Positions 29,701 to 63,538 of a stretch of 64,000 nucleotides of DNA are shown piece after piece. Both the position numbers and the translations under genes were made by a program. This DNA comes from Lytechinus pictus (Eukaryota): the NCBI RefSeq assembly GCF_037042905.1, contig NC_087245.1:7442001-7506000 (forward strand), read 5' to 3'. Below the pieces are notes generated by a model. It saw only the letters and a list, made by a program, of their open reading frames with translations. It had not been told where the DNA came from and made no database searches. Each line of letters opens with the position of its first letter. Positions within the stretch are counted from its first letter, which is position 1.

Positions 29701-32700
29701 TTTTTTTTTTTTTTACAAAGTTATCATACAGTATCATCTACCAATGTTTGTTGTCATCTTCTACTCTTAATAGTACAGACCACCTTCTGGTTTGGTTTTT
29801 TTTGTGTATGATTGGGATTTTGCTTGGGACTGGCAGGTGCAATACACTGTGTAACACCCTATTCTGACTAATAGTCTATTGGTTTTGACAAGCATACATC
29901 GTAGGTTGTAACTCTTCTGTACACGGGACCAACAGTTGCATCCTTTCCGATGGATGGAGTGTTTTCAAACTGCATTCACACTTGCTCTGAATCCAGTGGT
30001 GAGGCATGCTAACACAATGCTAGCATCAGTTTTTGTCTCACCTGCATAGCAGAGTGAGACTATAGGCGCCGCTTTTCCGATGGCGGCGACGGCGTCAACA
30101 CCAAATCTTAACCGAAGGTTAAGTTTTTGAAATGTCATCATAACTTAGAAAATATATGGAACTAGTTTATGAAACTTGGACATGAGGTTAATCAAGTATC
30201 ACTGAACATCCTGCATGAGTTACATGTCACATGACCAAGGTCAAAGATCATTAGGGTCAATGAACTTTGGCCGAATTGGGAGTATCTGTTGAATTACCAT
30301 TATAACTTTGAAAGTTTATGATTCTGATTCATGAAACTTGGACATAATAGTAATCAAGTATCACTAAACACCCTGTACAAGTTTCAGGTCACATGATTAA
30401 GGTCAAAGGTCATTTAGGGTCAATGAACTTTGGCCAAATTGGGGGTATTTGTTGAATTACCATCATAACTTTGAAAGTATATTGGTCTAGTTCATAAAAC
30501 TTGGATATTTAAGAGTAATCAAGTATCACTGAACATCCTGTGCACATTTCAGGTCACATGACCAAGGTCAAAGGTCAATGAAGTCCATTTCTGTTTTATC
30601 AATCACCCTTTTTTTGTGTGTTTCATATTTAATCGTACATCCTCGTAATTCCATTAACATAATTTCAAAAAATACCTGGTCACTTACAATAAATTTGCAA
30701 GATTTCTTATTGATATCCTCAAACCTAGCCTCATTGTGTTCATTCTTGTCAATATAATTCATTGTTATTTCTTATTTCTTTTATTTTATCTCTTATAATT
30801 TTTACATATTCCTCATCATTTAGAAGTAAACTGCTAAATTTCCAAAATCTGTTACGACATCGACCATTATCTAATTTGAGTTCTAAACTAATCAATTAAT
30901 GATCAGATCTATAGCTATTATGGATCTGACAACTTGAAACCAAAGAAAGTAACTGATTAGATATCAAGAAAAAATCCAAACGACCTTGTTTTAAAGGATT
31001 AGGTTGTCTCCAAGTGTACCGTTTTAAATCTGGATTAATAGATCGCCATGGATCAATTAAGTTAAAATCATTTTTAATTTCTGTAACTTTGTAATGTGCG
31101 TTTTTATTATTTAATCGAACGTAGTTATATGAATCCAAATCAAGATCCTGGAGTAAATTCCAGTCTCCGCACATAATTACAATAGGATCGTTTATGTGTA
31201 ATATAATATTCTCTAATTCTTCGAAAAAGCTGGGACAATCCTTGTTTGGGGCATAAAGTGAAATCAAAGAAAATTCTAATTGTCCAATACAAAGGCTTAA
31301 AGCAGCATAATTAAATTAAGTCATATAATACCTGTTTCACTTCGCATTGATTTCTTTTATCAAGTAATATCACGACACCCCTAGCATTAGAGGATTTGTT
31401 TGCAAAAAAACATGAACCATCTCAATCAAGTTCAACTATAGCCTCTATCTCAGGCACGAAAAGCGTATCTAATAAACAACCTTGGTAGACCAGCAGCACC
31501 ATGATTGATGCTGCTGAGTAGGGCCATCCTCCCGTTTTCTATTTATCAATTCACATGTATCATTTTATATGTATTGTTATCTGTTTTTTAACGGAAAAAA
31601 ATTCAATTCAACAAATATCAGCATTTTTACTTTTAAGATAGTTCAATACATCTTTTCTTTTCTGCAAGTTTCCCAGACCCCTGCAATTTACTGAGATAAT
31701 TTTCAACTTACTATTCATAGATCGAAACATAGCATAACCCATATAAAAGCCATCGAAGGGATTTTTTTTTAACATACAAGACAAAACAAGACTTATAACA
31801 TAAAAGACGACACCAAAACAACACCTGAACAAGACAAGAGACTCGCACTGCGTTTCCTTACATAAATACCACACATAACAAAGGAGAGTAGGACTTTTCC
31901 ATGGGGTCTCCTACGAAATCCATTTCTTACATAAGAACGTAAAATCTGTAAAGAGCTTGAACCTTGCCCTTATTTTATGAAAGAGCATTCTTTCCTGTCA
32001 TTTTTTCCTAAAAAACAAAAGAAAGAAGATATCTAGTTTGTAACCAGGAATTTACAACCATTTAACATAACAAAGGTAAACGCAATGTAGGAATAAATTA
32101 AGATGAACACAGATCATTGAAATGAGAATAGGCAAACAGCGATTCCGGTGCCGTATGTGTTCATAATTATCCTAATGAAAAGGGGGAAAAGTCGAAGCTT
32201 CGAAACCCTAAAATAATTTTTTAGAGTAGATGCAATTGTAAATAATGAAAAAAAAGTAAGGAAAATGATAATAATATATATATTTGCAATTTACAGCACC
32301 TTTGGCCAAATGAATTCTCAATTTTCATGTCTGTGTTCAACCAAATTATCTAAAATGACTTTATAAACATAAATCGAAGTTTCTTCAATTTACTTCCTGA
32401 TCATTCTTACATCAGCTTTTAAACATTTCCGAGAAAATCAGGCTGAAGAAAATGGCTAATAGTGATGTTACTTTCATCGATTGAGTTACAGATCTCCTTG
32501 TATTAGTTTTTCAAAGAAACATAACCGAGGTCAAAATACATCTTGAAAATATTTAATGTAAATTGCATGATAAACGTGCCTATTTCTTATGTTCTTGCTT
32601 GATACACACAATAATATTGATCTCTTCTCATTTGACAGTCATATGAATGCTCTTTTCGTATTAATGTTCCGGAAAATGTTTACACTGTTTATCAAGTAAA

Positions 32701-35700: not shown

Positions 35701-38700
35701 TCAATTGTAATGGAAGATCTGTGACAACTCGAAGCCGTACTGGACTATCAGAAGTTGGTTGAGCATGGTGATTTTTCTTGAGCTGATATTTTTTCAATAC
35801 TGCATCGTGATCGAACATACTCATAAATCAAAACGATGATTGGATCCGGACCTCTGCGTTGCTCCCCCTGAATCTGGCTTCTTGGAAGCCTGTGGGCGTT
35901 TACAAACTTCATTTTACTTGTTTCCTCCTGGGTAAAGCCTAACTTCTGTATACTGCTTCTTACTTTCCTTTCAATATTTTCATCTTTCTCCTTTTCGATT
36001 CCGTACAGCAGAAGGTTGAGTTTGGGATTGTGTAGCTCCAGAGCAAGGATTGAATCCTTAATTTGTGCTTCCATAGCATTTTTCTCCTGTCTTAGCTTCG
36101 GAATTTCCTGATTTTCAATTGTGCTTATTCTTGAAGCCGAATCTGCTGCTGCAGCTTGTAGATCAGCAAGTGTTGTATGCATTCCCGAAATATCCTTCTT
36201 GATAGCAGTCATCTGAGAGCCCAATGTATCCAAACGTTGTACATGTAGAATCTGGTTAGACAGTTTTTGAAAATCTGCACATGTTACCATGTCTGATGTC
36301 TTCCCAGCTTCTAATGCATGGTCCTCTTCCGTGGTGACTTGATTATTAGACATGTTTTTTTAAATTAAACTTGGCTTAGGAGAATACCTGTCCTTTTTTT
36401 TCCAAGGAGAGTCTGTAGAAGAATTACTGAAAAAAATCAGTTATATACTTTGAGATTTTGCTCATGCTGCCCCTTTGGAAGCATTCTGCCATACAGTTGT
36501 AGAAAATGCACTCCTTCAGGCTGAGTGTTGAATGGAGACAACAACACTACAATGTTCGGCAAGCCCAGAGAAATAAACTTTAATTAATATAATATTTTAC
36601 CCCCTCACTTCACAATTAAATATCTAAAACATGGCAGAACTTGAACACATGAAATATGTTCATTTTCTGGTGGGGTTCACTAACTTTTTAGCACCACTGT
36701 ACATGTACAGTGGAGGAGCTGTTGCGTAGTGGTTCTGACTCTCCCCTTGTAAACAGAGGGTTGTGTGTTCAAATCCCACCATGGTCTGGCGTCCTTTGGC
36801 AAGGCGTTAATCCACACTTTGCAACTCTCGACCCAGGTGATAAATGGGTACCCGGTAGGATGTGAAAGTCATTGTAGCTTGTTCAGTACTGTGTGCGCCT
36901 CACCGGCTACTGACTGGAATATTCCCCAGGGAGTGGAGGATGTGCACACATTGTGTGCGGGAATGACTGATTGAATCCGATGACCGGGGTAATAATAGAG
37001 ACTTTTAGGAGCAGTGAACGAGAACGGCGTAGCAGTCGTCTGATCGTTCGAGTCAACGTCGTCTGCACTTGTTGACTACAGATGCGAATACTTTAGATTT
37101 CACTCAACTTGTACATGTATGTACGTCCACGTGAAACAGCGCGATAACCAGCAGGTCATGACACGCTGCCCGACCCGGAAGATCTGTCGTACCATCGCCG
37201 GGCTTTGATTCCTTTTTACGCGAATCAGGATATATATTGATATATATTTTGGAGATCAGAAAGCAATTTCATATATGATAAACATAATGCATCATACAAC
37301 TTTATTTTGTGAAAAAGTCACTGAAAACTGTGTTTTAAAAGGGAAAGGTTGATCTTCATGCTGAGCTTGAGCGGTTGAAATGACATCACTCACGTGCACG
37401 TCGACTATGATTTAGGAGAACAGCAAAATGGATGTGGCGAGGTTCTCGATTCTGATAGTGGAGGTGTGTGAGTACCTGAGGCATATGGAACGCAAAAAAA
37501 TGACGTAATCTCGTACCAGTTGTCTATGTCGACGTGCGTTTCTAAAAGTGCTCAATATATCTGTAAAGCGCTTAGACACGTCGTTGTGATGTTTTAAGGG
37601 CTATATAAAAGATTATTATTACATGTATGTACTTTCTGAGTGAGACCAAGAACTATAGTCAATCATGTATAACCACAATAGACTTCCAAGTGTGATTTTG
37701 ACACATCATTGATTTTTGACAGCACGATTACATTTGTGGTTGATTGATAAAAAGGATAATCATCTTGAAACTAGCTGATTCAATATCAACATACATGTAG
37801 GAATTGAATTTGCAAGGCTGTCAACTATCTATGAGAACAGTATTCATCATTTAGCCCAAGCAAGATGAAATGAAAAGAATGAGTGATTTTTCAAAAGACA
37901 AACATTTATGGCATTTGACCAATAGAGGGCAGCTTCATACATCCAAGTTTTGTTAGATTGAAAGCCAACCACCAGAATTGATGTGTGAATTTTCAAAACA
38001 CCAGCAGTAGCAGCTGCAGCAATAGGTGGTTTCAAACCGCCTCGATCACAAGAATCCCCGTTAAATTACGAGAACTTTTTTAGGCTGAAAAATACCCATT
38101 AATTATTCCTGCATTCACACCGCCCTGAAACATACCCTTCGGGATAAGTTCCTGAAGTTACGAGCATGCGCAGTATGGTCTGATAAGCAGCAAGGCGCGA
38201 AATTCAAAATCACTAGCCCAGCAGCAACCCATGCACGGCGCCGCACCCAACGACACGCTGGGCTAAAAGTTCCCGTAATTTGCTTTCAGACCGCCAAAAT
38301 ACCCACGACCTTGGAAAAATCCCCGCGAAAGTTCTCGTAATTTCGCCAAGTACCTACTATTTATCGGGTATTTTCTTTCGGGGATATTACGCGTAGTTTG
38401 CTTTCACACCGCCAAAATACCTGGTATTTTCTGATCGGGGTAAATTTCCCGATCAGAGAATACCTGGAACTGGCGAACTTCGAGGCGGTCTGAAACCACC
38501 TAATGAGCATCTTTCCCCAAAAAATAATGAGTTGGGCATACTAGGCCTAAATAATTTGTCTTAGTGTGAAAGAAAGAATGTTTCTGCAATCTGTAGTCTT
38601 TGAATGTTTCAAACAAAAATATTGCTCATGAGTAGCTGAACTTGACTCTGTTTTAAAATTATGTTTAAAAACAAATAATTCATGCAAAAAATTTTGAATG

Positions 38701-44700: not shown

Positions 44701-47700
44701 CAATAGAATACAATTGCTCCAGCAGGTACGAGACCTTTGCTTCCATCCATTGATGAATATGCATTTACGGTAGAAGAGGTGTCCTGTGTTCTCCCAAGGT
44801 ACACTCTACTGGGGTAAGATAACCCACACCAAGTCAAATCAAGGACAATCAGCATATTGTGGAATTCAGGAAATTGTCAGTTATAAAGATAGAGAAGTAC
44901 ACGCACATGTAGCTGTCATTTGCGTAAAATTTCATGATGGAATTAAGCCAAGAACTTAACACCTCTCTACAATATCCTGTTCATGAAGTTTTGAATGACA
45001 ATGTTGCTAACAAACATTAGTCAAGAGACCAATACCAACATCATGTTTAGAACTCAGAATCCTTTGAGCATTGTCCTACAGTCATGACAATGAAATCATC
45101 TTCAGAGTCTCCTTACACCCGCAATGGCACTGTCTCACCATCTCGATTCCCATACTACCGCTTCCTCCCTCCACTTAAATCTCCACCCCCTCTGTCAGCT
45201 CCACCCTCCAAGCCCCCATTCCGTGAGGATTACTATGGTGAGCATACTTACACAGCTTATGATACCCATAGGTTCTGGGTCCATGGCCCTCACTGGCCTA
45301 TCTATTTCCTAGGTGAGCTTCTACCCACTCCTGAACACATCTTCACTGTTCCAAAGGAACCTGAGCCTCTATGGCAGTATGGTAAGTATCCAATCAACGC
45401 AACATGACAATTGCTGTATCAACTATCAGTTTTGTCCTACATCATTGGTCTATTTTTTTTAATTTGATTCGTATTGTTCTTGTTCTGTTTTGTTTTGTCT
45501 ATTACTGTTTTTTTAAATAAATTTTTGTCCTGGTCAGTTTTTCCCCATTTTGTGTTTGTTTTGTTTTGTTTTGTCCTGTCCTGTTATGTACTGTCCTATT
45601 TTGATCTCTTTTGTGTTGTTCTGTTCTGCTTTGTTTTTGTTTTTTGTTTTTTTGTTTTTTGCTTTGTTTTCTTTGGTTTTGTTTGTCCTTGGTTTGATTT
45701 TATTAGGTATTGGTACATGCATGCAACTTTATCCACTAATTCAGTATTCTTCACTGTGATCAATTTTGCTTTGTTTTTATTTTGAATATCAGTACAAGTA
45801 CTTATAATTCATTTCATTGAATAATTGTAATATATGAGGTTGACATGGTGATTATGAAAATTTCAGTATCACTGTAAGATTTAATGCACTTTCAATGTAT
45901 AATTATTGTGTAATTTCATTTGAATTTTCTTTAAAAATCTATTTTGGATTTATTCATTAAATAGGAAATATTGAAGAAGTGTGCTAATATCCTTTTCTTT
46001 CAATTTTATGGATTTTATATTGTCCTTTTTGTTTTCTCCAGTTCCTCAGGATGGAAGGACTATTCATACCCAGAAGACTAAATGGTATAGGCCATGGGAA
46101 GGCACTCAGAATGTCTTTGACTCTGAAAGGACATCCAAAGGGACCATTCCACACACCATACCAGAGGGGTGCTGTCCAAGCTTAGTTTTTGAATCACGGT
46201 TTGAAAGTGGCAATCTCAGACAAGCCAGAAGAATGTAAGTTAGGAATACACCTTTTTTATTCTTCTCCTTTGCCAGGATTTTCCTATGATTTTTGGTGGA
46301 CAAAAAATTATATAAAAACTACATGTAATAGCATCAGCATTATTTTTTTTCTCTCTTTTTTTACCCATCTTTCTTGTTGCCATTAATCGTATTATTTTAT
46401 TTTATGCTAAATTTCCGATTGGTACAGTGTATCACATCTTCATGTACTGGTACAACCTCATTTTGGCGTTTGTTTTTTTCTTGTTGCAGTGGTCAGTTTG
46501 AGTATGACCTTGTTCTGAAGACTGACCTTTACACTAGCCGTCACACTCAGTGGTATTACTTCCGGGTTCAAAAGATGCGTCCAGGGGTCACTTACAAGTT
46601 CAACATCATCAATCTACTCAAGAAAGACAGCCTTTATAATCATGGTCAGTTTGAAAACACTATTGTCTAAACCTTTTTTGGAGGGGGGTGGGGTAATTTA
46701 CAGTTTATTACTGTACTAATCATGAGATTTGTTTATTACTTGCAGAAAATTAAGTGGTATTTCTTTCAGGTGCTTCGAATTGTCTCTTTTTTTTCCCTCA
46801 TGAGCAGCACTTTTTTCCAAGAAAATTTCTCCCTTTCATATGATTTCTTACAAAGTAGCGTGTACCCAGATCTAGCTTTTCTTTCTCTTTATTAAATAAG
46901 GCATGATTCCCTATAAACTGATGTTTTTTACAATATTTTTATTTCTAATTTCTCTATTCCAAAATTTTCCATTTATGTATATGGTAATTGCTAAACTTGA
47001 AAGTTAACTCAAACAATTACTATTACTCATGAATGCTGAATAAGATTTCTTTATAATGTTGAGTGTTTGCATGTATATAGATGTATAGATTGTAGTGTCC
47101 CTAAAGTTCCAGTTCCAATTTTTTTTTACTTTGCCAAAGCTTAAAAAAAAAAATCATTAAATCATTTGGAACCCTCCTAGCCCGATATCCTTTCTTTTGA
47201 CACCACCATACAGGTATGAGACCATTGATATATTCAGAGAAGGAAGCAGAGGCTAGTGGTCAAGGCTGGGTCAGGGCTGGTCATCATATCTCTTATTCTA
47301 GGAGTTACGGCTTCAACAAAAATGGACTTCTGCACCCTGAAATTACATATTACGTTCTGGAATGGCAAATGGTAAGGAAGTGTATATTGTTGTATTTGTG
47401 TTGTCTTGTTCTTCAGATGATATTAGATAGAGATGAAGGGTTTACTTTAATGTAGATCATGGAACTTGTTGTAAAGTGCAATCCATGTAAGTGAGGGGTC
47501 CAGACCTAAAAGAATTAATCCTGTATTATATTTATTTTTTTCCAGTTTAGTATTTTAATTATATTTGTTTTCTTGATGATTATTATTGGCTTTTGAAAGC
47601 AGATGTCCACTATTGATTAGATTTTTAAATCCACTCTTTTTATGCAATCATTTCATTTCCTTTTTTGCAGGGGGGGGGGGCATTTTTTCACGAAACAGTC

Positions 47701-53700: not shown

Positions 53701-56700
53701 AGTTAAACATTCTTTACCATCTGCAAACCCAAAGTATCTTTTAAGATCCATAAATTACCCATAAGAATAGAAAAGATAAAAATTCAAGGGCTTTTTCATT
53801 AAAGAATTTGATATTAGAGATTGATGTACTGTCTGTATATAATTTTATAAATGAAGGAATATCGGAGGGTAACATTTCAGGAGTAATAAATGGAACCAAA
53901 TTAATGTAAAGTACAATCTAAGATGAATGTTTATCTGTAATTAGTGTTGTAGAAGTGATTATTTGATCTTTGTTTTCCCTCTTTAATTCTCAGTAGCAAG
54001 TTAGGCTGTAGATCTTGTGTTGTAATTAGTTTTTATTTTTCCATTTCTGCTTTCAGTGACTAAAATTAGGCCATGATCTAGTTTCCCTTATTGTAACCAT
54101 TCTGTTTAGTAAGCTGTAAAGGTGTTATCCTGTACATAGTATTGATACACCAAACATTATATAAAGTGTACAGTAAAACCTTGCATTTGTCAACCTTACC
54201 AATGTAAAAATTCAGCCAATGTCAAAGCTTCTTACACAACCTATCTCATAAATTACTTATTAGTGCTTTTAAGTCACATAACTCAGATTTAGTCAAAGCT
54301 ATTTTTCAGGGGCATGTTTTCATGATTAGCTACCATAGTAACAGGACTCGACAGCAACTAAAAAACAGAGTTTGCTTGTTAGTCACAGTAATGGCAAAGT
54401 ATCCATCATTTTTTTTTCATAACAGTCCCTTGTTCCAGCTGATTTAATTCAATTTAACTAAATAACTAATTCTTTCAAACATTTGACATTGAAAATTAAA
54501 GCAAAATACTGCTTTTCAAGGAGAATAAACACTCATTGATTTTTTGAAGCAGAGGAAGGGTGGAGGTTGACAAAATTCTTGTTCTCATTTAATAGTAATT
54601 TTATTAAATGAAACTTATCATGGGCTTGTTTATATCAATGCACCAAGTGCTGTTTTACATGTACACTATGATGATTGATATGTAAATTGATCACTGATTT
54701 AATGCTGCGAGACAGAGAGGCACATCATCTTTGAAAAGAGCCCTTGCGACAAGAGGAAAGAAGAGACCAGTACCGGTAGAAGATAGGAAAGAAGAGACGA
54801 GTGATGGTGTATCGTTGATCGATGCTCCTTATAATCCCTCAGACTCTTGCAGTAGTCAGGTGTGTTTGTTAAATCCATCCCTACATACTTCCCTCAGCAT
54901 CGGTTGCCATGGTTACTGTGGAGCACATCATCTCTTTCTAGGATCACTTTATTCACCTCTGTTCTTCAGTAAAACCCTTTTGTAGTTTAGTCCTGTTCCA
55001 CTTTTATAATGTTGATACCAGTGATTGAATACTTGTCCAAGAAGAATATTGAGGAGCCATTGATGGCTTTGAAGGAATCTTATCAGTCACATGGGAGTAT
55101 TCAGTAAAGTGTCTTGCCAGCCTCGGTGATCAGCTGCCAACTAATTTTCCAAGCTATAAAATATATTGCTTTTGATTGACCAAGAAGATATGTGACAGTT
55201 ATGATCTCTGATTCTAGAGAAAATTTCCCCTGTAGCTGTATATTTGGCAATTTTAAAACCAGTAACATATTGAATAGCAATGCCATAGCCTTGAGCCATG
55301 AAAGGCTTCACAAGTTCACCAAATTCATTAAGTTTATACTGTTTTTTAATATTCCAAGTATCCTCAGCAGTCGTCATTTATGGTATGCTTCTGAAGATAT
55401 TTTATATTCTACCTTATTTGAAAAGGGCAAGTGTTGATTTTACACCCATAAATTCACTGGTATAAACACAACATTCACAGTTTATGGTTACCAAATATAC
55501 ACTGATCATGTAGATAAGATAGTAGTTTCTAGCTCTCATCCTCACTTGATCACTCCTGTTTGAGACAATGGTAGAATTAGGTGTTTGGCTGTATAAATTA
55601 ATTAGAAGCACAACACAATACCTCCAATATGTCAATGAGAGAACTCTACACTATCAATTCCTGGATTCTGTGGTGGTTTTGAATAGGTTAAACATACATT
55701 CACTCAGACAAGAAAGACTACTCCACCCATCTGCATTATTTTGTGTAATATCTCTCTGCATTGAAACTATCACTAAATTCTGTATAGTTTTTAGTGTGTA
55801 TTATAGTATTTTCAGATAGAAGTATAAGCTAATATCAGGGGTTGTCTGATTCTAGTGGTAGTTTTTTTTTCTTATTTTTTACATAGGCACTCCCTTAAAG
55901 AAGGTCTTTTTAGTTCAATTGGACTAGCTAGGGCTTGTTCTCATTGCAAATGCTTCCTTATAAAGTCTTCCCTTGAATATTTGGAGGAGCCATGGTGTAG
56001 TGGTTCTGACTCTCGCCTTGTAAACGGAGGGTCGTGTGTTCGAATACCACCACGGTCTGGTGTCCTTTGGCAAGGTGTTAATCCACACTTTGCCACTCTC
56101 GACCCAGGTGCTAAATGAGTACCCGGTAGGATGTGAAAGTCATTGTAGCTTGTCCAGTACTGTGTGTGCCTCACTGGCAACTGACTGGAATACTCCCCAG
56201 GGAGTGGAGGATGTGCACACATTGTGCGCGGGAATGACTGATTTAATCCGATGACCGGGGTAATAATATATCTGTAAAGCGCAATAGACACGTCATCCCG
56301 ATGTATATATTAAGCGCTATATAAAAGCGGATTATTATTATTGATATGAAAAACATACTTAATTGACAATTCCATCAAAAAAGGAATGACATCAGTGTGA
56401 ACAAGCCCAAACCCACAATTCTCCCCTTCTCTCTCATCCTCTCTTCTCCTCTCGTATCCCTCCTTTTTCCTTCCACCTAATTCAGAGGTTGGTTCGTAGA
56501 CGTATGTGGAATAATCCCACATTCATTCAGTCGTGGGTATCTGATGCCATTGAGGAGAATGCAGAGAAGACAAATAAACTAGACTCAGTCACTCCTTCTT
56601 ATAGAGCCATGTCTAGATTACAGGTTTGAAGACAATTTTTCAACTTTAGATTTTGTGAAGCTGCCTTTGTGATGCTGACATTTTTTTTAAATGGTTTGCT

Positions 56701-59700
56701 CCCATCCTTGCATTGCTGTGATTTTGCAATGTGGTGATACAGTGATCAAGAAAGATTGCGTTGAGATAAATGATTTGCAGTTTTGATCCATATTGAAATT
56801 TTAGATTACATCCAAATGGGTCTCATCAGTGCTTTGGTCATTTTGAAAATTCTAAGCTATTCATCAATTTCATGTGACCTACATATTTATGTCTATGCAT
56901 ATTTTAAACTAAATTTTATTATGATGTCAAGATTTAACCATAGAGAAAAGAAGATATTTTCTAAAAAGTTTTGTTAGTGAATTATTACTGTCTTCCAAAT
57001 TTGATTATTGATAATATTGGTCTTCTGTTTCACCACTTTGTGATATCTCAATCAGCTTAGGGTTGGTTCCTGGATATATTCTTTCTTTCTGATGCTATAT
57101 GACTTTTCTTTAGGGTGAAAGGAATGCTCTTGTATTTTTCATCTTTTCTTAAATCATACTGTGTTAAACTACAGGGTTCTTTTTGTTCTGATGGCCTTCT
57201 TTTGTTCTGATGGCCTTCTTCACTTCGAATATTTGATTTCTTTTCTATTGGCTTTTAATGAGCTGCGCCTTGATAAAAATTTGCCTCTTATTCTGATCTA
57301 TATTGAACTTTTCATCTCCTGACTGAAACCTGCTTCTGCCCTTGTTATCCTTTCCTCTTTATAATGAAAATTTTACAGAAAGGCAGCAAATGATTCAAAA
57401 TTTTCACGCTATTTTCACCTTATATCCTTATGCTTTGCATCAAGCTTTTCTTAGAATTTTCCCTTGCAGAGACTTCCCCTTTTCCTTTTTGCTGTGTGTT
57501 TTGTTTGCTCTCCATTCTTTTGCACATACTGGAATCGGAAAAAAAAATAATTCACTGAATAAATGGTGTAAGGTATATACAGAAAAATATGAGCTTAAAA
57601 CGGAATTTAGCTTTATTCAAATTCTGTTCAAGTGTGAGCATTGATGGATGGGTCATGTATTATATCTTTGTCAATTTCATGAGTATTTCTTTACTTTATT
57701 GACAAAGGAAATACCATTTGTGGCACAATACACTCTGAATATGAGGTGGTTGGATTATGGATTTATATCTCCTATTGATTTAAGTACATGTGTATACTTG
57801 AAATAATTAAGTGACAGTAATGAATGAAAGTTCTTTAAATAAATTCATTTAAAATGAACTTTGGAAACTTGTATTAATCTTTTAAAGATTGCCTTATTCA
57901 ATATAATGTATTTTCCATTTCCACTATTGCTACCATGGATACTGACCTCTTGTAATGATAGGATGCTAAAAAGCACCTTGCTATAACCTTGAAATCCGAG
58001 GATGAATCAAAGTCATCCCACCAACCCCAAGACTGCAATGCTTTCCCCATTGAAGCCAGACAGTATGATCTACTACCAATCCATGACACCAGGGTTCTAG
58101 CGAGCGCTACCAATGCAAGACTGAAGGGTCTCTACATGGACACGAGGCCCTTTCATGGTAACTACCATGGCAAGAGTAGATCAGGGTTCACAGGCAAGAA
58201 GCTACCTCAACTGTACGGTCGTGAGGGAACATCCACCCTCTATCGTCTCATCAAACCAAAGACAATGGAAGTACCACATAGATTAGGCCAGGAGAGATGT
58301 GTGACGGAGCTAGGAGAAGCTAACCAGTATGTGGTGTATGGACCAGAAGAATCAGATGAGAATGTAGAGGATCCTTTTATCATATCTTGACACGTCGAGT
58401 GGTGTGGATTTGCACTGAGTGATCTAGCATGGGCTAACAACAATCACTTTCAAGAATTTGTAGTCTTCACATTGGATTCCTTATCACCACATTCCCTTAA
58501 GATTTTGAGGGTAGTCTATGGTCTTCAAAGGATTCATAGGCCAGTTCCACCTGAATCGTTCTGTAGCAGTACATATTGTGCAAGATGACATTTCAGGATG
58601 ATTTTCAAATGTTGAAGTAATCATTACATAACCATTTAAGATTGTTTATCCTTTCTGATACCTGTTGCTACTTATGGGGTTTTTTTTTTTGCATAAGATA
58701 CATCAAATAGTTTGTTTTGTAGGTTGTCATTTCATTCAAGATTTATAAAGTTTAGTCTTGTTTAGAATGATGAAAACAAAATTATTTGAAAATTACTGTT
58801 TTACTTGCTTTTGGCTTTTTTTTTTATAGTTAATGACAAGTTTATAGGAAATTCAGATAATATGTGTTCTGTATCAATTAATAAGATAATGTGTGATTGA
58901 TCTGTATATTTTTATTAGAAGGTCTACATGACATATTTTAGACTGTTCATTAGAAAATCATTTTGAAACGTCATTCCACATTACTGTGAATCATGCACAT
59001 GTACAAAAAAAGTGGTTTAATGTTTAGTTAGTTCAAAGTGGTAACCACTGCATGATTATCGATCTGAACTCACATAAGGGGCCTGTTTCATAAAGGACTT
59101 ACAACTACTGTAACTTTGCCATTATGGCAACTACCATGGTAACAGGGCTCAGCAGCCAATCATAATCAAGGTTTCCATGCTATTTGCCATAATAGCAAGT
59201 TACCATAGTTGTATCTCTTTATGAAATGGGCCCCTGATCTTTTTTTTTGCAGACACTATAAAAAAGATCTTGTATGTAGCCACATGCAAAGTGATCCATA
59301 TTAAATAAATTCATCAGGTACTCAAATATAAATCTATCAACAAAGATTGCTTAGCTGGGAACCAGTCACAATAGTGAGGGTACCCTTATTGGCTTAAAAC
59401 AGAAATCAGATTATTTCAGGTGGTACTGGCCTTGCAGATTACACAGTCTTAGCACATTCTAGTCACTCAAGTCTATCTTCACTTTAAAGGTTAACAAGAC
59501 TCATCCTTTTCTATTTCCAAAGTAATAGTTTATTGATAATGATATTGAGTGATGTTTATACTGTAATTTTAGTAGTTGACAAGTGCAGAAATATTAGGGA
59601 GGCAAGACAAGTTTTGTCATTGACACATATCTAGTGAATAGATGATTTTGATTGACTACTGCGGATATTAACAGATCTTAACAGACCATTGATTCCATCA

Positions 59701-62700
59701 TGTTTTGTGACATATTGAATATAAAAAGTGGAAATGTAGAACTTTGTCATGAATAGACATGCATCACTGCTGTACGTCTTTCCGATGCACTTAAGTTTGT
59801 GTGGAAGTAGAATTGCACAATGAACACTATTTACCAGTACATACATCATACATTCATACATAGTATGCATACGTACATAAATGAGTTTTTTGCACTGTTA
59901 AAGATGATATCTTTGAATTGTAATGGAAAATTATAAAGTCCAACACATTATGCACATGCAGTATGATTGCACAAATACTCATCTACATGTATAACATCAC
60001 TTTATTAAAAAAAAAAACATGACAAAAGTAAAGCTCCATATATACAACATTGGGTTCCAGTTTGAAAGAGCATTGATTTTAACCAGATTGATCACTAATA
60101 ATACTAATTATTAATTTTTGAAATTGTTTAGATTTATTTATACAGGTTACTAAAATGATAAATTGCTGCTGTTCATAAAAGATAGTTGATTTATTGATCA
60201 GTAGGCCTATAGCAAGCAACTTTCTGAAATGCAAACAGATAAAAAGGCAATGAAACGTTTCTTGCAGATTATTCAATGACAGTACTGTAGCTTTATCAAG
60301 AACATCAAATTTCTTGCTGCTGTATACAATTTAAACCAATTCACAAGAAGCTTTATCCATAGCTCAATTCTTATGCTCACTTTGATGCACTCAAACTGCA
60401 ATTTGCAATATGTTGCCTGTTTCAATGTATCTACATACCTACTAATGTGTTATAACTTATATTCAGACTAATGTGTGTGAAACGCTGATATAAATGTGTA
60501 CTGTATGTGATCCGTTGCAGAAAGATTTGCAATCATATTTTGTTCTAAAAATCCACAGCAACTTGATTTTGCAAAAATCAGAAATGAGTATTTATGATCT
60601 TTGATATATTTTGCCATTACGTTTAAACTCGAGCGTAAAAGTATTTCTGCATTTAGCCCTTTTTCTACAAAGCCAGGCAGATTATGGCCAATAAGTTGCA
60701 AAACAGATTTTGTTCATGACAATTAACTAAATGAGGAAAAAAATACTATTTAATTTTTGTCAATTTGTGCTTTTTTTCTGGATATGGGGCCTGTTGGAGA
60801 AAAAGATTACAATTCCCAAAAAATTAAACTTGTCTTGATTGCGTTTGATTTTTTTATATATAGTTCTGTCTGCAATGGGACACAAGTCACATATAATGCA
60901 TTATGAAAAAGAATTATATTTTGTATGTATGTTTTTTTCTTTTGCTTCTCTTCATTTGATGCTCATCATACATATATCATTGGTAAGGAATGTATATGAA
61001 AGAAAGCAACACTATGTTCATTTGTATTTTTTTCATGTGTGATTGTTATTATAAGGCAGATGATTATGCGTGTTTGACAATTTTCTTTTCAAATGTATTT
61101 TTTTTAATGAAAGAAGAAAGTTGTTGTACTTTAGATATTTTTTCCTCTTTGCCAAAGCCTTTATTTATCATACTACATATTTAAGCAAGTGTGTCATTGA
61201 AATGAAATTAACTTTTTGGAAAGTGGCTATTGTTCATAAGTGTGCATGATTTAATAATTTGGACCATATGCAAGCGTGGAGGGGATTTGACCAAAAAATA
61301 ACTGTTCTTCTTTCTTGATTTATTTCCCATTATTATTCTTGTCTAAAGGCAGGCTTTATGTATTTCATGTTTATTTACCTTTTTTTCAATTCTGATTTGT
61401 GTTTGTATGATATTTCTCTGCCTTTGCCTACAGACTTTCCGAATTGGTAAATGCACACAGGCCGTCAAGAAATACCCTCCATTTGTTAACCGGTACGCCA
61501 AACGTTCTAATCATGGTATCCCAATGTTTTCTCAAGAGAGAATACAAGAAAGAGCTAAGGTAAGTTGGAGCTACTTCTTAAAGAACAGTCATTGGTCTTC
61601 TTTGCTTATTTGCTTTTTATCTCATTTGATGTGCATGCGCTTTATAAATCATGTATACTTTTCACTTGAGTAGGGGCCATGTCTCTGTAAGTATTGGTCT
61701 CTAATCCAGTGGTTGAAATCAAGTTGATATTTGTCATCTTTGGGTGGGAATGTGCATTAGTTAAAATGAGAGTTTTCTTGGAGCTTCATATGTATGTAGT
61801 CTGTCCTGCACTATGTGTTTTTGTATGGATCTTGCAAGGAATATTAATTTTTAATTACATGTTGATGTCAAATGGTGTTGGTAATATAACTTTCTATATA
61901 GATAATATAAAAGTATAAGATGAATCAAATCAGCAATGCATAAAATCATGTTAAATCAGTGAAATGGAACAATGTGATAAAGTGGGAAAAAACAAACCAA
62001 ATGTATGAAGTGCCATTGAAATTAACCCAACCCAACCCCCAATATATATACACTATATACATGTATATATATATTTTTTTTTTAACTGCCGAAGTGATTG
62101 ATTCAATTTAGAAAAAAAAAATGTTGAATAATAATTGCTCTGAATTATATTGTGGAAACCGACAACTCCTTTTTGATAACTTTGTTTGTACCGTTTCGTC
62201 TCTATAATTTCTTCAACAAGCAGCATGAAATATATTTTTATAATATTAAGCAAATAAGTTTGTGTGGATTATTTTCCCAAGTTTTGTTCATCCTATAACA
62301 TCATCCAATAACTAATGGGATTCCATTTTTTTCTAATTCCTTCTCCAATCCAAAATACTTCACTTGCTGTTTCCCTTGCAACCATTTGATATGAAATTCA
62401 TATATCACCATTACGATCATATTGTGTGATATTTCCCCTGATACTATGGGAATGCTTTCAAATCTACCACGTGGGTAAATGCTTGAATGGCTCTTACTCC
62501 TGCTTCCTTTGCCTTTCATAATCATTCTCCATGAAAATGTTTCATATGGCACCTCATCATCAACCCCCTTGCCCACCGATCCCAACCATAATGTATTACC
62601 CCTGATTACTGGTTGATTCCCAATGGTTTCCTGTGGTACTATTCCTATCAATCTCCATCATCTCCACCAATGCCATCAACATACCCACCATCATCATCCA

Positions 62701-62880
62701 TCATCTGCAATGTTCCTGCTGTTTCACCATCATACCATTCCATGCAACCACCTGTGAAACCACCACCTGTTACCACCACTGCTTTACCCCGGTACCACCC
62801 ATACCCTATAGCTGCGCATGGAAGCAACCAAGTGTGGTGATCAGGACACCGGTGGTGGGGAGGAAAATGCCCTCGATCAG
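23609..62880 (+). CDS. AGBL2: Cytosolic carboxypeptidase 2/3-like (Nna1/AGBL2-AGBL3 group, M14D tubulin deglutamylase); multi-exon gene, probably continuing beyond the window
   Basis: Spliced frame contains [71 protein letters not shown] and FTLEATFCG. All introns are GT-AG with consistent phases. AGBL2 and AGBL3 cannot be told apart here; the gene is likely co-orthologous or a lineage paralog. Confidence 0.92.
24435..24533 (+). CDS. CCP gene exon ([33 protein letters not shown]), phase 1-1
   Basis: ttttaagcag| acceptor, aaag|gtaatt donor, 99-nt open frame with coiled-coil-like composition. Confidence 0.75.
25334..25342 (+). CDS. Candidate 9-nt microexon (adds A-P-E), phase 1-1
   Basis: cattctttag|ctcctgaag|gtaaat, frame-preserving. 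Confidence 0.4.
26905..27067 (+). CDS. CCP gene exon ([21 protein letters not shown]...KKKEEEK), phase 1-2
   Basis: ttattcag| acceptor, ag|gtggga donor, open frame joining the next exon. Confidence 0.85.
27289..28070 (+). mobile_element. Helentron/HINE (DINE-1-like) element with an internal ~120-bp tandem array
   Basis: 5' tttatatgcccccgc..gggggcat IR followed by (tccg)n, 4-5 units with 'gatgacaccaaaatacaggc..ggtcaaaggtcacagctcatt', then 3' gcggggg, a gtgtcc-ttt-ggacac hairpin and ctagtt. Confidence 0.8.
28184..28500 (+). mobile_element. Decayed tRNA-derived SINE
   Basis: A-box-like tggtctagtgg and B-box-like gagtttgaatc in a tRNA-like head, followed by a non-tRNA body. The 3' end is approximate. 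Confidence 0.55.
28642..29234 (+). CDS. CCP gene exon (RSLTLEEC...[31 protein letters not shown]), phase 2-1
   Basis: ttcctag| acceptor, cat g|gtaaga donor, 593-nt open frame ending in the CCP2/3-type WP..C..H..P..EP motif. Confidence 0.9.
30030..30581 (+). mobile_element. Truncated second copy of the HINE-like element at 383-1391, opposite orientation
   Basis: tttttgtctcacctgcatagcagagtgagactataggcgccgcttttccg... is the reverse complement of the 1391 end, followed by ~140-bp units. Confidence 0.85.
30582..31718 (-). pseudogene. Decayed L1/Tx1-clade LINE ORF2, APE-endonuclease region only
   Basis: [47 protein letters not shown] and YRSDH motifs. Contains stops, frameshifts and an insertion; no RT domain visible. 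Confidence 0.9.
31481..31608 (+). mobile_element. 128-bp 5'-truncated retroposon tail inserted in LINE ORF2
   Basis: Ends in an A-run plus (attca)n and is flanked by caac. Removing it restores the ADIC-CLLD reading. Confidence 0.65.
33581..35254. mobile_element. Tc1/mariner-pogo-like non-autonomous element, TA TSD
   Basis: Perfect 24-bp TIR ggggagaccggggttagttggaac / gttccaactaaccccggtctcccc, TA on both sides, internal ggggtaagttggaac repeats. Confidence 0.85.
34040..34681. mobile_element. piggyBac-like MITE fragment nested in the previous element (left boundary approximate)
   Basis: Ends gggggg-ctcaaattga-cccccc...ataaggg|ttaa, a CCC terminus next to TTAA. Confidence 0.5.
35591..36430 (-). 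pseudogene. Decayed L1/Tx1-type ORF1 (coiled coil, RRM, CTD)
   Basis: Coiled-coil segment followed by [27 protein letters not shown], then a frameshift into ..[16 protein letters not shown]. Confidence 0.75.
36712..37621 (+). mobile_element. tRNA-derived SINE with L2-like (att)n tail, interrupted at 36997-37554
   Basis: Colinear with the intact copy at 55983-56342. Confidence 0.85.
36997..37554. mobile_element. Non-autonomous DNA element with a 2-bp AT TSD (ISL2EU-like)
   Basis: Short imperfect TIR agagacttttag / ctaaaagtgctca. The AT duplication is deduced from the empty site in the 55983 SINE. Confidence 0.6.
38024..38501. mobile_element. PIF/Harbinger-like MITE, AAT TSD
   Basis: 22-bp TIR aggtggtttcaaaccgcctcga / tcgaggcggtctgaaaccacct with aat on both sides. 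Confidence 0.85.
41071..41473 (+). mobile_element. TTAA-flanked MITE (Kolobok-like), intact young copy
   Basis: ttaa-aggtaaatgctag...ggaatttctct-ttaa with the internal palindrome gagcgtcgggcccgacgctc. Confidence 0.85.
45082..45381 (+). CDS. CCP gene alternative or duplicated exon (MTMKSS...[32 protein letters not shown]), phase 1-1, with its own ATG at 45084
   Basis: gtcctacag| acceptor, tat g|gtaagt donor, 300-nt open frame. Its 3' end is homologous to the end of exon 28642-29234. The 5' boundary is less certain. Confidence 0.8.
45470..45790 (+). repeat. Degenerate (TTTTG)n low-complexity tract
   Basis: Repeated ttttg/tgttc/tgtcc pentamers. Confidence 0.85.
46042..46234 (+). CDS. CCP exon (VPQDGR...[15 protein letters not shown]), phase 1-2
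   Basis: Splice sites and the CCP N-terminal domain motif FESGNL. Confidence 0.95.
46490..46644 (+). CDS. CCP exon (GQFEYDL...HTQWYYF...SLYNH), phase 2-1
   Basis: Splice sites and the conserved QWYYF motif. Confidence 0.95.
47214..47371 (+). CDS. CCP exon (GMRPLIYS...GWVRAG...LEWQM), phase 1-0
   Basis: Splice sites and conserved motifs. Confidence 0.95.
47807..47993 (+). CDS. CCP exon ([19 protein letters not shown]...[12 protein letters not shown]), phase 0-1
   Basis: Splice sites and the YPF/YPY motif at the start of the carboxypeptidase domain. Confidence 0.95.
48454..48572 (+). CDS. CCP exon (..[18 protein letters not shown]), zinc ligands HxxE, phase 1-0
   Basis: Splice sites and the HPGE motif. 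Confidence 0.97.
49218..49406 (+). CDS. CCP exon ([26 protein letters not shown]..), phase 0-0
   Basis: Splice sites and M14 NPDG and NR motifs. Confidence 0.97.
49841..49981 (+). CDS. CCP exon ([14 protein letters not shown]...LLSQK), third zinc ligand, phase 0-0
   Basis: Splice sites and the DxHGH motif. Confidence 0.97.
50365..50513 (+). CDS. CCP exon (APDKFSF...[18 protein letters not shown]), catalytic Glu, phase 0-2
   Basis: Splice sites and the FTLE motif. Confidence 0.97.
50920..51018 (+). CDS. CCP exon ([25 protein letters not shown]..), phase 2-2
   Basis: Splice sites; typical C-terminal helix of the CCP domain. Confidence 0.93.
51448..51572 (+). CDS. CCP exon ([16 protein letters not shown]...KDVKQ), phase 2-1
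   Basis: ttcccag| acceptor, g|gtgggt donor, frame continuity. Confidence 0.88.
51967..52156 (+). CDS. CCP exon (GQKSKKHGG...KEFAES), phase 1-2
   Basis: ttctag| acceptor, ga|gtaagt donor, open frame. Confidence 0.88.
52678..52804 (+). CDS. CCP exon ([30 protein letters not shown]..), phase 2-0
   Basis: tttttag| acceptor, gag|gtgagc donor; Ser/acidic stretch followed by a basic cluster. Confidence 0.9.
53255..53299 (+). CDS. CCP exon ([15 protein letters not shown]), phase 0-0
   Basis: tttgtacag| acceptor, aag|gtaagg donor, 45 nt. Confidence 0.82.
54716..54859 (+). CDS. CCP exon ([18 protein letters not shown]...SCSSQ), phase 0-0, probable cassette
   Basis: Atypical acceptor gcgagacag|, donor cag|gtgtgt, 144-nt open frame. 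Confidence 0.65.
55983..56342 (+). mobile_element. tRNA-derived SINE (TGT anticodon-like loop) with L2-like tail, intact
   Basis: A box tggtgtagtgg, B box gttcgaatacc, body tcctttggcaagg..cgacccaggtg, tail tgtaaagcgc..agcgctatataaa..(att)n. Confidence 0.88.
56486..56623 (+). CDS. CCP exon ([25 protein letters not shown]...MSRLQ), phase 0-0
   Basis: Long pyrimidine tract and ttcag| acceptor, cag|gtttga donor, 138-nt open frame. Confidence 0.72.
57962..58390 (+). CDS. CCP alternative terminal coding exon ([15 protein letters not shown]...EDPFIIS*)
   Basis: actgac branch-like motif and gatag| acceptor, phase 0, 142 codons to TGA, coding-like base composition. Confidence 0.7.
   Translation, partial: DAKKHLAITLKSEDESKSSHQPQDCNAFPIEARQYDLLPIHDTRVLASATNARLKGLYMDTRPFHGNYHGKSRSGFTGKKLPQLYGREGTSTLYRLIKPKTMEVPHRLGQERCVTELGEANQYVVYGPEESDENVEDPFIIS
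59078..59234 (+). mobile_element. Short Harbinger-like MITE
   Basis: ggggcctgtttcataaag / ctttatgaaatgggcccc with taa/tga flanks. Confidence 0.75.
61434..61559 (+). CDS. CCP exon ([42 protein letters not shown]), phase 0-0
   Basis: Strong cctacag| acceptor and aag|gtaagt donor, 126-nt open frame. Confidence 0.85.
62812..62880 (+). CDS. CCP exon ([23 protein letters not shown]), phase 0-0, after a long AG-free zone
   Basis: Begins at the first AG in 528 nt (62810-62811), cag|gtatgc donor, 69 nt in frame. Confidence 0.75.
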
Positions 62881-63538
62881 GTATGCTAACATTATTAACT
62901 CATAAAATTTCATTTTGGTATGTTAAGTGAAAAGGGTGCCAATGCTGTATAGATATAAACATTATATATTTCAATGCAGACATAATATAGCTCATAATTG
63001 CTTTTGTATAGTCAGTTTAGCCATCGTATATCTCAAGCCTTTCACAATCATTCAAATCTCAAAGGACTAGCGAAAAGCATTTATTGGTATTGGTATACAT
63101 GTACAGTATGTTGATTCCACATCCCCCCTGCTTACATGATTTTTGGATGACACTGATATTTCAAATTCTATCTTCAATTTTTTTAGACCGTATGGAGGTC
63201 TGTTTGCTGTTGGTGTCTATTGAATTGCAGTTATGTCATGCAGTTTTTATTTTGAATTAGCTTACAAATTAATGTAAAGATATTACAAATGAAAGTATTG
63301 ATTGTTGAGTGCACAGTGCTATCTTCTACTATTTTTCATGAATTATTATACTGCCTTATTATATTCTTATGCATTATGATATATCAATATTTGCATGTAG
63401 ATATTTGCATATGAATATTTGTCATTTACTCCTGAGGAAGACAAAGGATTGTTGAAAATTTGAGGCGTTTAATAAACATTCGACTGGCAAAAGCATTAAC
63501 TGTTGTTTTTTTTGCATGTAATTAAAATATGCATAACT

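What the first reader, a model, noticed from the sequence alone, without database searches (positions are those of the whole stretch)
62282..62880. 528-nt AG-exclusion zone packed with YCAY motifs before a 69-nt exon: distant branch point and likely Nova-type regulation
Seen: no AG dinucleotide on the + strand from 62282 to 62809, where dozens would be expected. The first AG (62810-62811) opens an in-frame 69-nt exon with a good donor. Branch-like motifs (aactaat ~62310-62316, ttctaat 62331-62337) followed by pyrimidines sit at the 5' edge of the zone. The zone is dense in ccat/tcat/ccac, for example accatcatcatccatcatc. Known: long AG-exclusion zones mark distant branch points with scanning to the first AG, and upstream YCAY clusters are Nova/Pasilla sites that usually repress inclusion. 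Inference: a branch point about 480-500 nt upstream, which is unusually far, controlling a tissue-specific exon.
Basis: partly seen in the sequence, partly recalled or inferred. Interest (0 to 1): 0.78.

Follow-up and report, generated by a model that had tools for sequence, protein, structure and literature searches.

The report
Long AG-free zone before cassette exon
The last 528 bases of an intron in a sea urchin tubulin-modifying enzyme gene (CCP2/AGBL2-like) contain no AG before a small optional exon, most likely because the splicing branch point lies about 500 bases upstream, a long example of a known splicing layout that recurs in this genome.

Summary
62282-62809 has no AG (about 15 expected) and 40 YCAY motifs. 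It ends at a real 69-nt in-frame cassette exon of a sea urchin CCP2/AGBL2-like gene. RefSeq isoforms include and skip it in three species, and one RNA run skips it in 7 of 7 junction reads. A distant branch point has indirect support. The used acceptor lacks a U-rich tract (poorer in U than all 51 ordinary acceptors). The zone's best pyrimidine tract lies beside two CTAAT motifs at -497 and -476. A related species' one listed AG in the zone lies upstream of them. No lariat read was seen. Nova control rests on motifs alone, and tissue specificity is untested. Coding and structure explanations failed; a repeat origin fits only one 55-nt block. The scan found this before on other DNA: five notes in this genome. 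Five comparison zones that I re-measured (three from those notes, two new; 0.5-1.3 kb) share the anatomy. Verdict: a new member of the known distant-branch-point exon class. The class in sea urchins is more interesting than this instance.

The parts
61434..61559 (+). Upstream exon (42 aa, TFRIGK...ERAK) of the CCP2/AGBL2-like gene; donor GTAAGT at 61560
   Evidence: RNA depth in X21 and X22
61560..62811 (+). 1,252-nt U2-type intron that carries the zone
   Evidence: exon mapping from RefSeq isoforms; sequence
62282..62809 (+). 528-nt AG exclusion zone
62310..62316 (+). Candidate distant branch site AACTAAT, branch A 62315 (-497)
   Evidence: sequence; no substitution listed here in organism B
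62331..62337 (+). Second candidate branch site TTCTAAT, A 62336 (-476); TTCTCAT in organism B, which still fits YTNAY
62321..62350 (+). Best U-rich polypyrimidine tract of the zone, with a run of seven T
   Evidence: acceptor-matrix maximum 7.4 bits at 62350, against -5.2 at the used acceptor
62436..62442 (+). Alternative branch candidate CCCTGAT, A 62441 (-371)
62600..62606 (+). Alternative branch candidate CCCTGAT, A 62605 (-207)
62655..62802 (+). YCAY cluster (22 motifs), C-rich and U-poor; the least diverged intronic part against organism B
62781..62787 (+). Only a weak proximal branch candidate, GCTTTAC (A at -26)
62810..62811 (+). Acceptor AG (TAG), the first AG after the zone; no U-rich tract before it
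62812..62880 (+). 69-nt in-frame cassette exon, [23 protein letters not shown]
62881..62888 (+). Donor GTATGCTA; the next exon starts beyond the window at L005:210

Best explanation
The zone is the stretch between a distant branch point and the acceptor of a conserved cassette exon. U2AF and U2 snRNP assemble on the CTAAT motifs and U-rich tract at the 5' edge (A 62315 or 62336, -497/-476), perhaps with -371 and -207 as secondary sites. Step 1 needs no AG. Step 2 takes the first AG downstream, 62810-62811, which has no tract of its own. Any AG arising in between would capture splicing and is removed by selection. The long distance slows or weakens inclusion, and the unstructured zone offers room for regulators. 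The YCAY cluster in its last 170 nt is the best candidate silencer, bound by Nova or another KH protein (about 0.4 likely). Shown: the AG gap, the exon, its alternative use, the weak acceptor, the edge motifs and tract, and modest conservation. Inferred: the branch position, scanning, and any regulator.
For: The AG gap is far beyond composition and holds in each sub-segment, including the 323 nt upstream of the -207 motif (P0 1.4e-5), so the constraint starts at the 5' edge. T content at -25..-4 is 0.14, against a mean of 0.51 and a minimum of 0.27 for 51 ordinary acceptors from two genes. The used AG ranks 21st of the 30 AGs in its intron, so better-scoring AGs upstream of the zone are tolerated. 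The best tract of the zone ends at 62348-62350, beside the two CTAAT motifs. Five other long zones share the U-poor acceptor: T 0.09-0.32 over all six, Mann-Whitney p 9e-5. Branch motifs are enriched at the 5' edges: 9 in 450 nt vs 21 in 4,423 nt, p 0.001, and p 0.005 without this zone. In organism B, 1 of 15 listed substitutions in the zone makes an AG, at 62303-62304, 11 nt upstream of A 62315. The last 184 nt differ at 4 positions, against 29 of 303 in mid-intron (p 0.001). Cassette behaviour is as in known distant-branch exons (PMC1431707, PMC2991248). In PMC2991248, 8 of 9 mapped long-zone exons used distant branch points.
Against: No lariat, go-back joint or RT stop was seen, but there was also no intronic depth, so this is uninformative. 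On a recalled human-like matrix the edge motifs (4.4, 4.7) score below CCCTGAT at -371 and -207 (6.6). A weak proximal candidate at -26 (2.7) is near the control median (2.9). The cross-species AG test is weak: only 1.3 AG gains were expected downstream (P0 0.21), a single gain falls in the first 46 nt with chance 0.17, and 44 of 84 substitutions and 13 indel rows were not shown. One of six zones (L011) has no edge motif, and one (L016) has a good proximal motif. The motif set and edge window were chosen after seeing the sequences. PMC5378181 found deleting distal branch points had only modest effects in three human minigenes. PMC1431707 estimates that only one-half to one-fifth of human zones of 100 nt or more mark distant branch points.
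Confidence: 0.68

Rival explanations
1. Branching is proximal (about -26). The zone is a pyrimidine-rich pad for regulators, and AG is purged only because any AG there would outcompete a very weak true acceptor as a cryptic site.
For: 86% of positions in the zone would have a better upstream tract than the real acceptor if an AG arose there. A YTNAY-type motif exists at -26 with a score near the control median. Distal sites mattered little in the minigenes of PMC5378181 (passages).
Against: Twenty better-scoring AGs upstream of 62282 are tolerated. There is no U tract between -26 and the AG. This reading does not explain why branch motifs are enriched at the 5' edges across six zones.
Confidence: 0.2
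2. The zone is a decayed CAT/CAC microsatellite or low-complexity tract, and its lack of AG and excess of YCAY are neutral by-products.
For: The only other genomic matches are to a CAT microsatellite, covering about 60 nt (query 448-506). Repeat-derived contigs pile on 62652-62704. Weak period-3 signal, 0.33-0.37 against 0.28-0.29. Pure CAT tracts elsewhere in the genome are AG-poor.
Against: Tandem Repeats Finder reports nothing here. 3-mer entropy of 5.34 bits is the highest of the 16 AG-free runs listed. The zone has 56 G and 13 GA but 0 AG. 30 of 40 YCAY lie outside the CAT-like block. The zone is less diverged than flanking intron and ends exactly at a used acceptor.
Confidence: 0.08
3. 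The zone is protein-coding in another transcript (an alternative first exon, a long exon from AG 62280-62281, or an antisense exon), which shapes its composition.
For: Open frames exist: + 62592-62837 (82 aa, Pro-rich), - 62899-62651 (83 aa), - 62657-62304 (118 aa). Other genomes in this scan show dual-use AG-free segments (unchecked notes).
Against: The exon's own frame is closed by stops, including the acceptor TAG. A 4-nt deletion at 62695 in organism B shifts the 82-aa and 83-aa frames. No Pfam hit for the three frames. No homolog for the + frame among 18 candidates (weak). Its two marker peptides occur in none of the 66 proteins held. No RNA depth in the zone apart from one read on the CAT-like block (low coverage).
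Confidence: 0.03

Closest known systems
Distant-branch-point exons with AG exclusion zones (human PTB exon 11, nPTB, GABA-B receptor exon 23, rat alpha-tropomyosin exon 3; Gooding et al. 2006, PMC1431707)
   Same: Long AG-free intron tail, branch motif plus U-rich tract at its 5' edge, no good tract at the acceptor, alternative exon, candidate regulatory elements in the zone.
   Different: Echinoderm. Predicted distance -497/-476, against -351 tested by mutation in PTB and 'up to 400' in that paper, though human PTPRS has a 1,126-nt zone. C/A-rich YCAY fill rather than CU-rich PTB sites. The exon keeps the frame. The branch point is not mapped here.
MBNL1, CLK1, CLK3 and HTR4 long-zone exons (Corvelo et al. 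2010, PMC2991248)
   Same: Long zone before a skipped exon; several candidate branch adenosines, often closely spaced and sharing one tract.
   Different: Those zones are 101-291 nt with mapped branch points; this one is 528 nt and unmapped.
Nova-silenced cassette exons (YCAY clusters in the upstream intron; map as stated in PMC3737533; Ciona Nova and YCAY in PMC12445529)
   Same: Dense YCAY cluster directly upstream of a cassette exon, few YCAY downstream; unstructured RNA.
   Different: No binding, knockdown or tissue data here. Sea urchin Nova expression was not checked; from recall of Irimia et al. 2011 (not held) it is not neuron-restricted outside chordates.
Other 0.9-1.3 kb AG-free zones of this genome (scan notes on p190RhoGAP, SIPA1L, GALNT and PLCB4)
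   Same: Sense strand, complex sequence, end at an exon, U-poor acceptor, branch motifs near the 5' edge (measured here for p190RhoGAP and one RapGAP locus).
   Different: This zone is shorter and the most YCAY-dense: 7.6 per 100 nt against 1.5-4.6.

Membership tests
Distant-branch-point (AGEZ) exon | Extended AG-free region ending at the used acceptor, with normal AG frequency upstream | tested here: met
   528 nt without AG; 29 AGs in the 722 nt of intron upstream
Distant-branch-point (AGEZ) exon | Branch motif with adjacent polypyrimidine tract near the 5' end of the zone | tested here: met
   CTAAT at -497 and -476; the zone's best tract ends at 62350. Motif scores are moderate.
Distant-branch-point (AGEZ) exon | No good branch site and tract at the conventional position | tested here: met
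   T 0.14, below all 51 controls; only GCTTTAC at -26, with no U tract
Distant-branch-point (AGEZ) exon | Zone not explained by a repeat | tested here: met
   one 55-nt CAT-like block is the exception
Distant-branch-point (AGEZ) exon | AG absence conserved in orthologous introns | tested here: inconclusive
   One close relative; no listed AG gain downstream of the branch motif, but 1.3 expected and part of the differences hidden
Distant-branch-point (AGEZ) exon | Branch point mapped more than 100 nt upstream | tested here: inconclusive
   No intronic depth or lariat reads in two RNA runs
Distant-branch-point (AGEZ) exon | Exon alternatively spliced | tested here: met
   Included/skipped: 6/3 of 9 L. 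pictus, 12/1 of 13 L. variegatus, 11/2 of 16 S. purpuratus isoforms (3 end earlier); 7 skip reads
Nova-repressed exon | [quoted passage not shown] | tested here: met
   22 motifs in 170 nt, p 0.0007 vs dinucleotide shuffles; the top 45-nt clusters of the window lie here
Nova-repressed exon | YCAY cores conserved | tested here: inconclusive
   Both substitutions inside proximal motifs are Y-to-Y; a 4-nt deletion falls in the cluster; distally 2 motifs lost and 1 gained
Nova-repressed exon | Nova binds, and inclusion rises on Nova loss | not testable with these tools
   No CLIP or knockdown data
Nova-repressed exon | Skipping follows Nova-expressing tissues | not testable with these tools
   Tissue of the RNA runs is not given; one informative run
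Mutually exclusive exon enforced by a distant branch point | Partner exon whose donor lies close upstream of the branch point | tested here: not met
   Upstream donor is 755 nt from A 62315; skipped isoforms have no substitute exon; an acceptor-like site at 62223 has no in-frame donor by inspection

The most novel reading that the evidence does not exclude
Sea urchins routinely build cassette exons on ultra-distant branch points, 0.5-1.3 kb upstream. The branch site and U tract sit at the 5' edge, the acceptor has no U tract at all, and the spliceosome reaches the first AG across hundreds of unstructured bases that carry regulator sites (here a Nova-type silencer). The design would be far commoner than in humans: four such zones in 80 kb of one p190RhoGAP gene, against 165 zones of 150 nt or more among 67,334 human exons. 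It would stretch the tested range of second-step AG search beyond the roughly 350-400 nt known from mammals. This exon would be a short, tractable test case.
Probability: 0.45. Interest if true: 0.6.

Novelty: new member of a known kind. Interest (0 to 1): 0.38.

Why it matters
How far the spliceosome can search from branch point to acceptor, and whether it scans, is still argued. Mutation-tested distances in the papers read here reach about 350 nt. A 528-nt unstructured zone before a 69-nt frame-keeping exon, in a laboratory sea urchin, allows a direct test by lariat PCR and AG insertion. If the class reading holds, echinoderm gene models and variant effects must allow for splice signals a kilobase from the exon. 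The exon itself adds 23 residues to the C-terminal tail of a tubulin deglutamylase, far from the catalytic domain (Pfam hits end at residue 477; the exon is 768-790), so the protein effect is probably modest.

Tried and rejected
Lariat search: two ribo-depleted RNA runs gave 5 and 16 reads on the stretch, no joints, no piled ends and no intronic depth apart from one read; uninformative. The run index listed no holder on record as RNA, which is no evidence either way. DNA run X8 gave only repeat-like pieces (4 of 30 bins) and was not used. Secondary structure: z 0.09 for zone plus exon and z 1.08 across the acceptor, so no looping-out or acceptor hairpin. Rfam: one chance hit below the gathering score. 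Coding use: rejected. Esrp regulation, considered because of two TGGTG motifs in the exon: a name search of six supplementary files of PMC5703972 found only an AGBL5-labelled exon; one large supplement could not be read and the gene may carry another name. Recursive site at 62281: AG is followed by TT, not GT. Look-alike stretches in other genomes of the scan: none. PLC-beta locus search rang nowhere, so that zone and the GALNT zone were not re-measured. Of the fetched RapGAP stretches, those on C14 and C10 held no AG-free run of 300 nt or more. No unbiased genome-wide background for long zones was obtained, so their frequency is open. The two papers on invertebrate Nova and on the Pasilla map were not held.

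Full report
Observation. The + strand has no AG from 62282 to 62809 (528 nt). The next-longest AG-free run in the window is 229 nt. Shuffles of the zone's letters give 14.3 +/- 3.1 AG, and a model with local composition gives 15.1. 56 G in a row are not preceded by A, where 30% of the window's G are. GA is normal (13), so this is not a mere shortage of purine pairs. The gap holds separately in the segments edge to -371, -371 to -207 and -207 to -26 (P0 0.012, 0.0012, 0.0033). YCAY occurs 40 times, against 29.3 in dinucleotide shuffles (p 0.0013); 22 of them lie in the last 170 nt (p 0.0007).

Gene and exon. The upstream exon is 100% identical to Lytechinus pictus proteins named cytosolic carboxypeptidase 2-like (19 hits among 19 candidates), and Pfam finds the M14 peptidase domains. 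Exon mapping places the intron at 61560-62811 and the 69-nt exon at 62812-62880, phase 0-0. The exon is included/skipped in 6/3 of 9 L. pictus, 12/1 of 13 L. variegatus and 11/2 of 16 S. purpuratus isoforms (3 end earlier). It is present in 3 of 3 Diadema proteins, always as 23 residues. These are predicted isoforms, not inclusion levels. In RNA run X22 (16 reads laid, + strand RNA), 7 reads continue from the upstream donor straight into the next exon and none covers the cassette exon. By hand, the one-sided 95% upper bound on inclusion is about 35%. X21 (5 reads) also has no depth on the exon. The tissue is not given.

Splice signals. I compared 51 ordinary acceptors (23 from this gene, 28 from a p190RhoGAP gene; several of them alternative). 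Their AG-free zones have median 48 and maximum 146 nt. Their T content at -25..-4 averages 0.51, minimum 0.27. The acceptor at 62811 has 0.14. On a matrix built from those acceptors it ranks 21st of the 30 AGs in its intron, while the best tract of the zone (7.4 bits) ends at 62350, beside CTAAT motifs with adenosines at -497 and -476. Two CCCTGAT motifs at -371 and -207 score higher on a branch matrix that I wrote from memory of the human consensus, and the best proximal motif (GCTTTAC, -26) is near the control median. A branch point only at -207 would leave 323 upstream AG-free bases unexplained (P0 1.4e-5). The RNA folds no better than shuffles (z 0.09 and 1.08).

Relative. DNA contigs of organism B (run X6) cover all 30 bins. 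It is probably L. variegatus, because the change at 61464 gives the V-to-L difference seen in that species' protein (inference). 40 of 84 substitutions were shown, 15 of them in the zone. One makes an AG, at 62303-62304, upstream of the first branch motif; none does so downstream, where 1.3 were expected (P0 0.21). This agrees with the model but is weak, and 13 indel rows were hidden. Between 62626 and 62809 four substitutions and a 4-nt deletion are listed, against 29 differences in 303 nt of mid-intron (p 0.001). The whole zone, about 21-23 of 528, is less diverged than flanking intron, about 53-56 of 708 (p 0.004-0.02). These totals are my approximate sums from the piece table. No substitution is listed in the exon.

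The class. Earlier scan notes report five 0.9-1.3 kb zones in this genome. I fetched 200 kb around p190RhoGAP and three RapGAP loci. In 284 kb including the window there are six AG-free runs of 300 nt or more on either strand, all over 500 nt and all on a gene's sense strand. They are this one; L010 (718 nt within a 1,259-nt zone that has two AG); L011 (916); L012 (645); L016 (516); and L029 (916). L012 and L016 were not in the notes. The four p190 zones end at exons found in 5, 8, 2 and 8 of 9 Lytechinus isoforms. For L010 the split falls between species, so my data do not show skipping within one. I did not check the L029 exon against isoforms. All six acceptors are U-poor (0.09-0.32, p 9e-5). 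YTRAC/CTRAY motifs are enriched in the 75 nt at the 5' edges (9 in 450 nt vs 21 in 4,423; p 0.001, or 0.005 without this zone), though L011 has none and the test was framed after seeing the sequences. The sample was guided by the notes, so it gives no genome-wide frequency. This zone is the richest in YCAY (7.6 per 100 nt vs 1.5-4.6), so YCAY is its own feature and not the class's.

Mechanism. Most likely (0.68), branching occurs near the 5' edge, the first AG downstream is taken, selection clears AG in between, and the long arm weakens inclusion and carries regulator sites. Rivals are a proximal branch point with AG purged to avoid cryptic sites (0.2), a decayed CAT/CAC repeat (0.08; it fits only the 55-nt block that matches microsatellites) and coding use (0.03). 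Nova silencing is about 0.4 likely: the position fits the mammalian map and the cluster is modestly conserved, but there are no binding or tissue data, and other C/A-binding proteins (recalled: hnRNP K, PCBP, hnRNP L) are possible. AACTAAT is also a QKI/SF1-type motif (recalled).

Literature seen. PMC1431707, parts 1-2 of 8: definition of the class; 838 of 67,334 human exons with zones of 100 nt or more, 165 of 150 or more; PTB -351 tested by mutation; repeat-caused false cases. PMC2991248, passages. PMC5378181, passages. PMC3737533, passages on the Nova map. PMC12445529, passages. PMC5703972, passages and a name search of six supplements, one large file unreadable. PMC4230590, search listing only, for CCP2/3 as deglutamylases. 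Irimia 2011 and Brooks 2011 were not held and are recalled only. Searches listed no paper on long AG-free zones in echinoderms or on this exon; the library lacks most subscription journals.

Verdict. The feature is real and is a new member of a known kind. It is longer than the tested mammalian cases but shorter than others already noted in this genome. Interest 0.38. If ultra-distant branch points prove to be a common sea urchin design (probability 0.45), the class would deserve about 0.6.

Noticed in passing
L012:99-743 (+) (G000:C6:22700099-22700743): 645-nt AG-free zone with a perfect TACTAAC at -622 and an acceptor with no pyrimidine tract, before a 78-nt p190RhoGAP exon found in 2 of 9 Lytechinus isoforms; not among the earlier notes shown. 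A cleaner test case than the present zone.
   Followed up: partly
L016:624-1139 (+) (G000:C6:22740624-22741139): 516-nt AG-free zone before a p190RhoGAP exon found in 8 of 9 isoforms; it has TTAAC at the 5' edge but also a good proximal motif at -39.
   Followed up: partly
window 54716-61559: The CCP2 tail has further alternative pieces: exons at 54716, 56486 and 57962, and an alternative acceptor at 61460. The 57962 exon is either internal (donor after 58363) or terminal with a stop; the terminal form is seen in 3 S. purpuratus isoforms. X22 joins the exon ending at 53299 directly to 61434 in 5 reads.
   Followed up: partly
window 45084-45380: Alternative first coding exon ([11 protein letters not shown]...) used by the L. 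pictus isoforms, while the long N-terminus from 23609 is annotated there as a separate gene but joined in L. variegatus and S. purpuratus; probably a split annotation.
   Followed up: no
window 62112-62223: An unused acceptor-like site (pyrimidine-rich, AAG/CAG at 62220/62223, the best-scoring AG of the intron) lies just upstream of the zone, after its own 107-nt AG-free run; possible decoy, with no in-frame donor seen.
   Followed up: partly
window 62816-62890: GCATG at 62816 and two TGGTG motifs in the exon, and CTAAC just after the donor: possible Rbfox, Esrp and QKI sites (motif names recalled).
   Followed up: partly
window 30899-31910 and 35751-36359 (-): Open frames that look like LINE endonuclease and ORF1 remnants inside a CCP2 intron (label recalled, not searched).
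   Followed up: no
L012:7600-L014:8450: p190RhoGAP carries a long run of small, similar alternative exons, many with a tyrosine motif such as YGVV, which have ordinary short AG-free zones.
   Followed up: no
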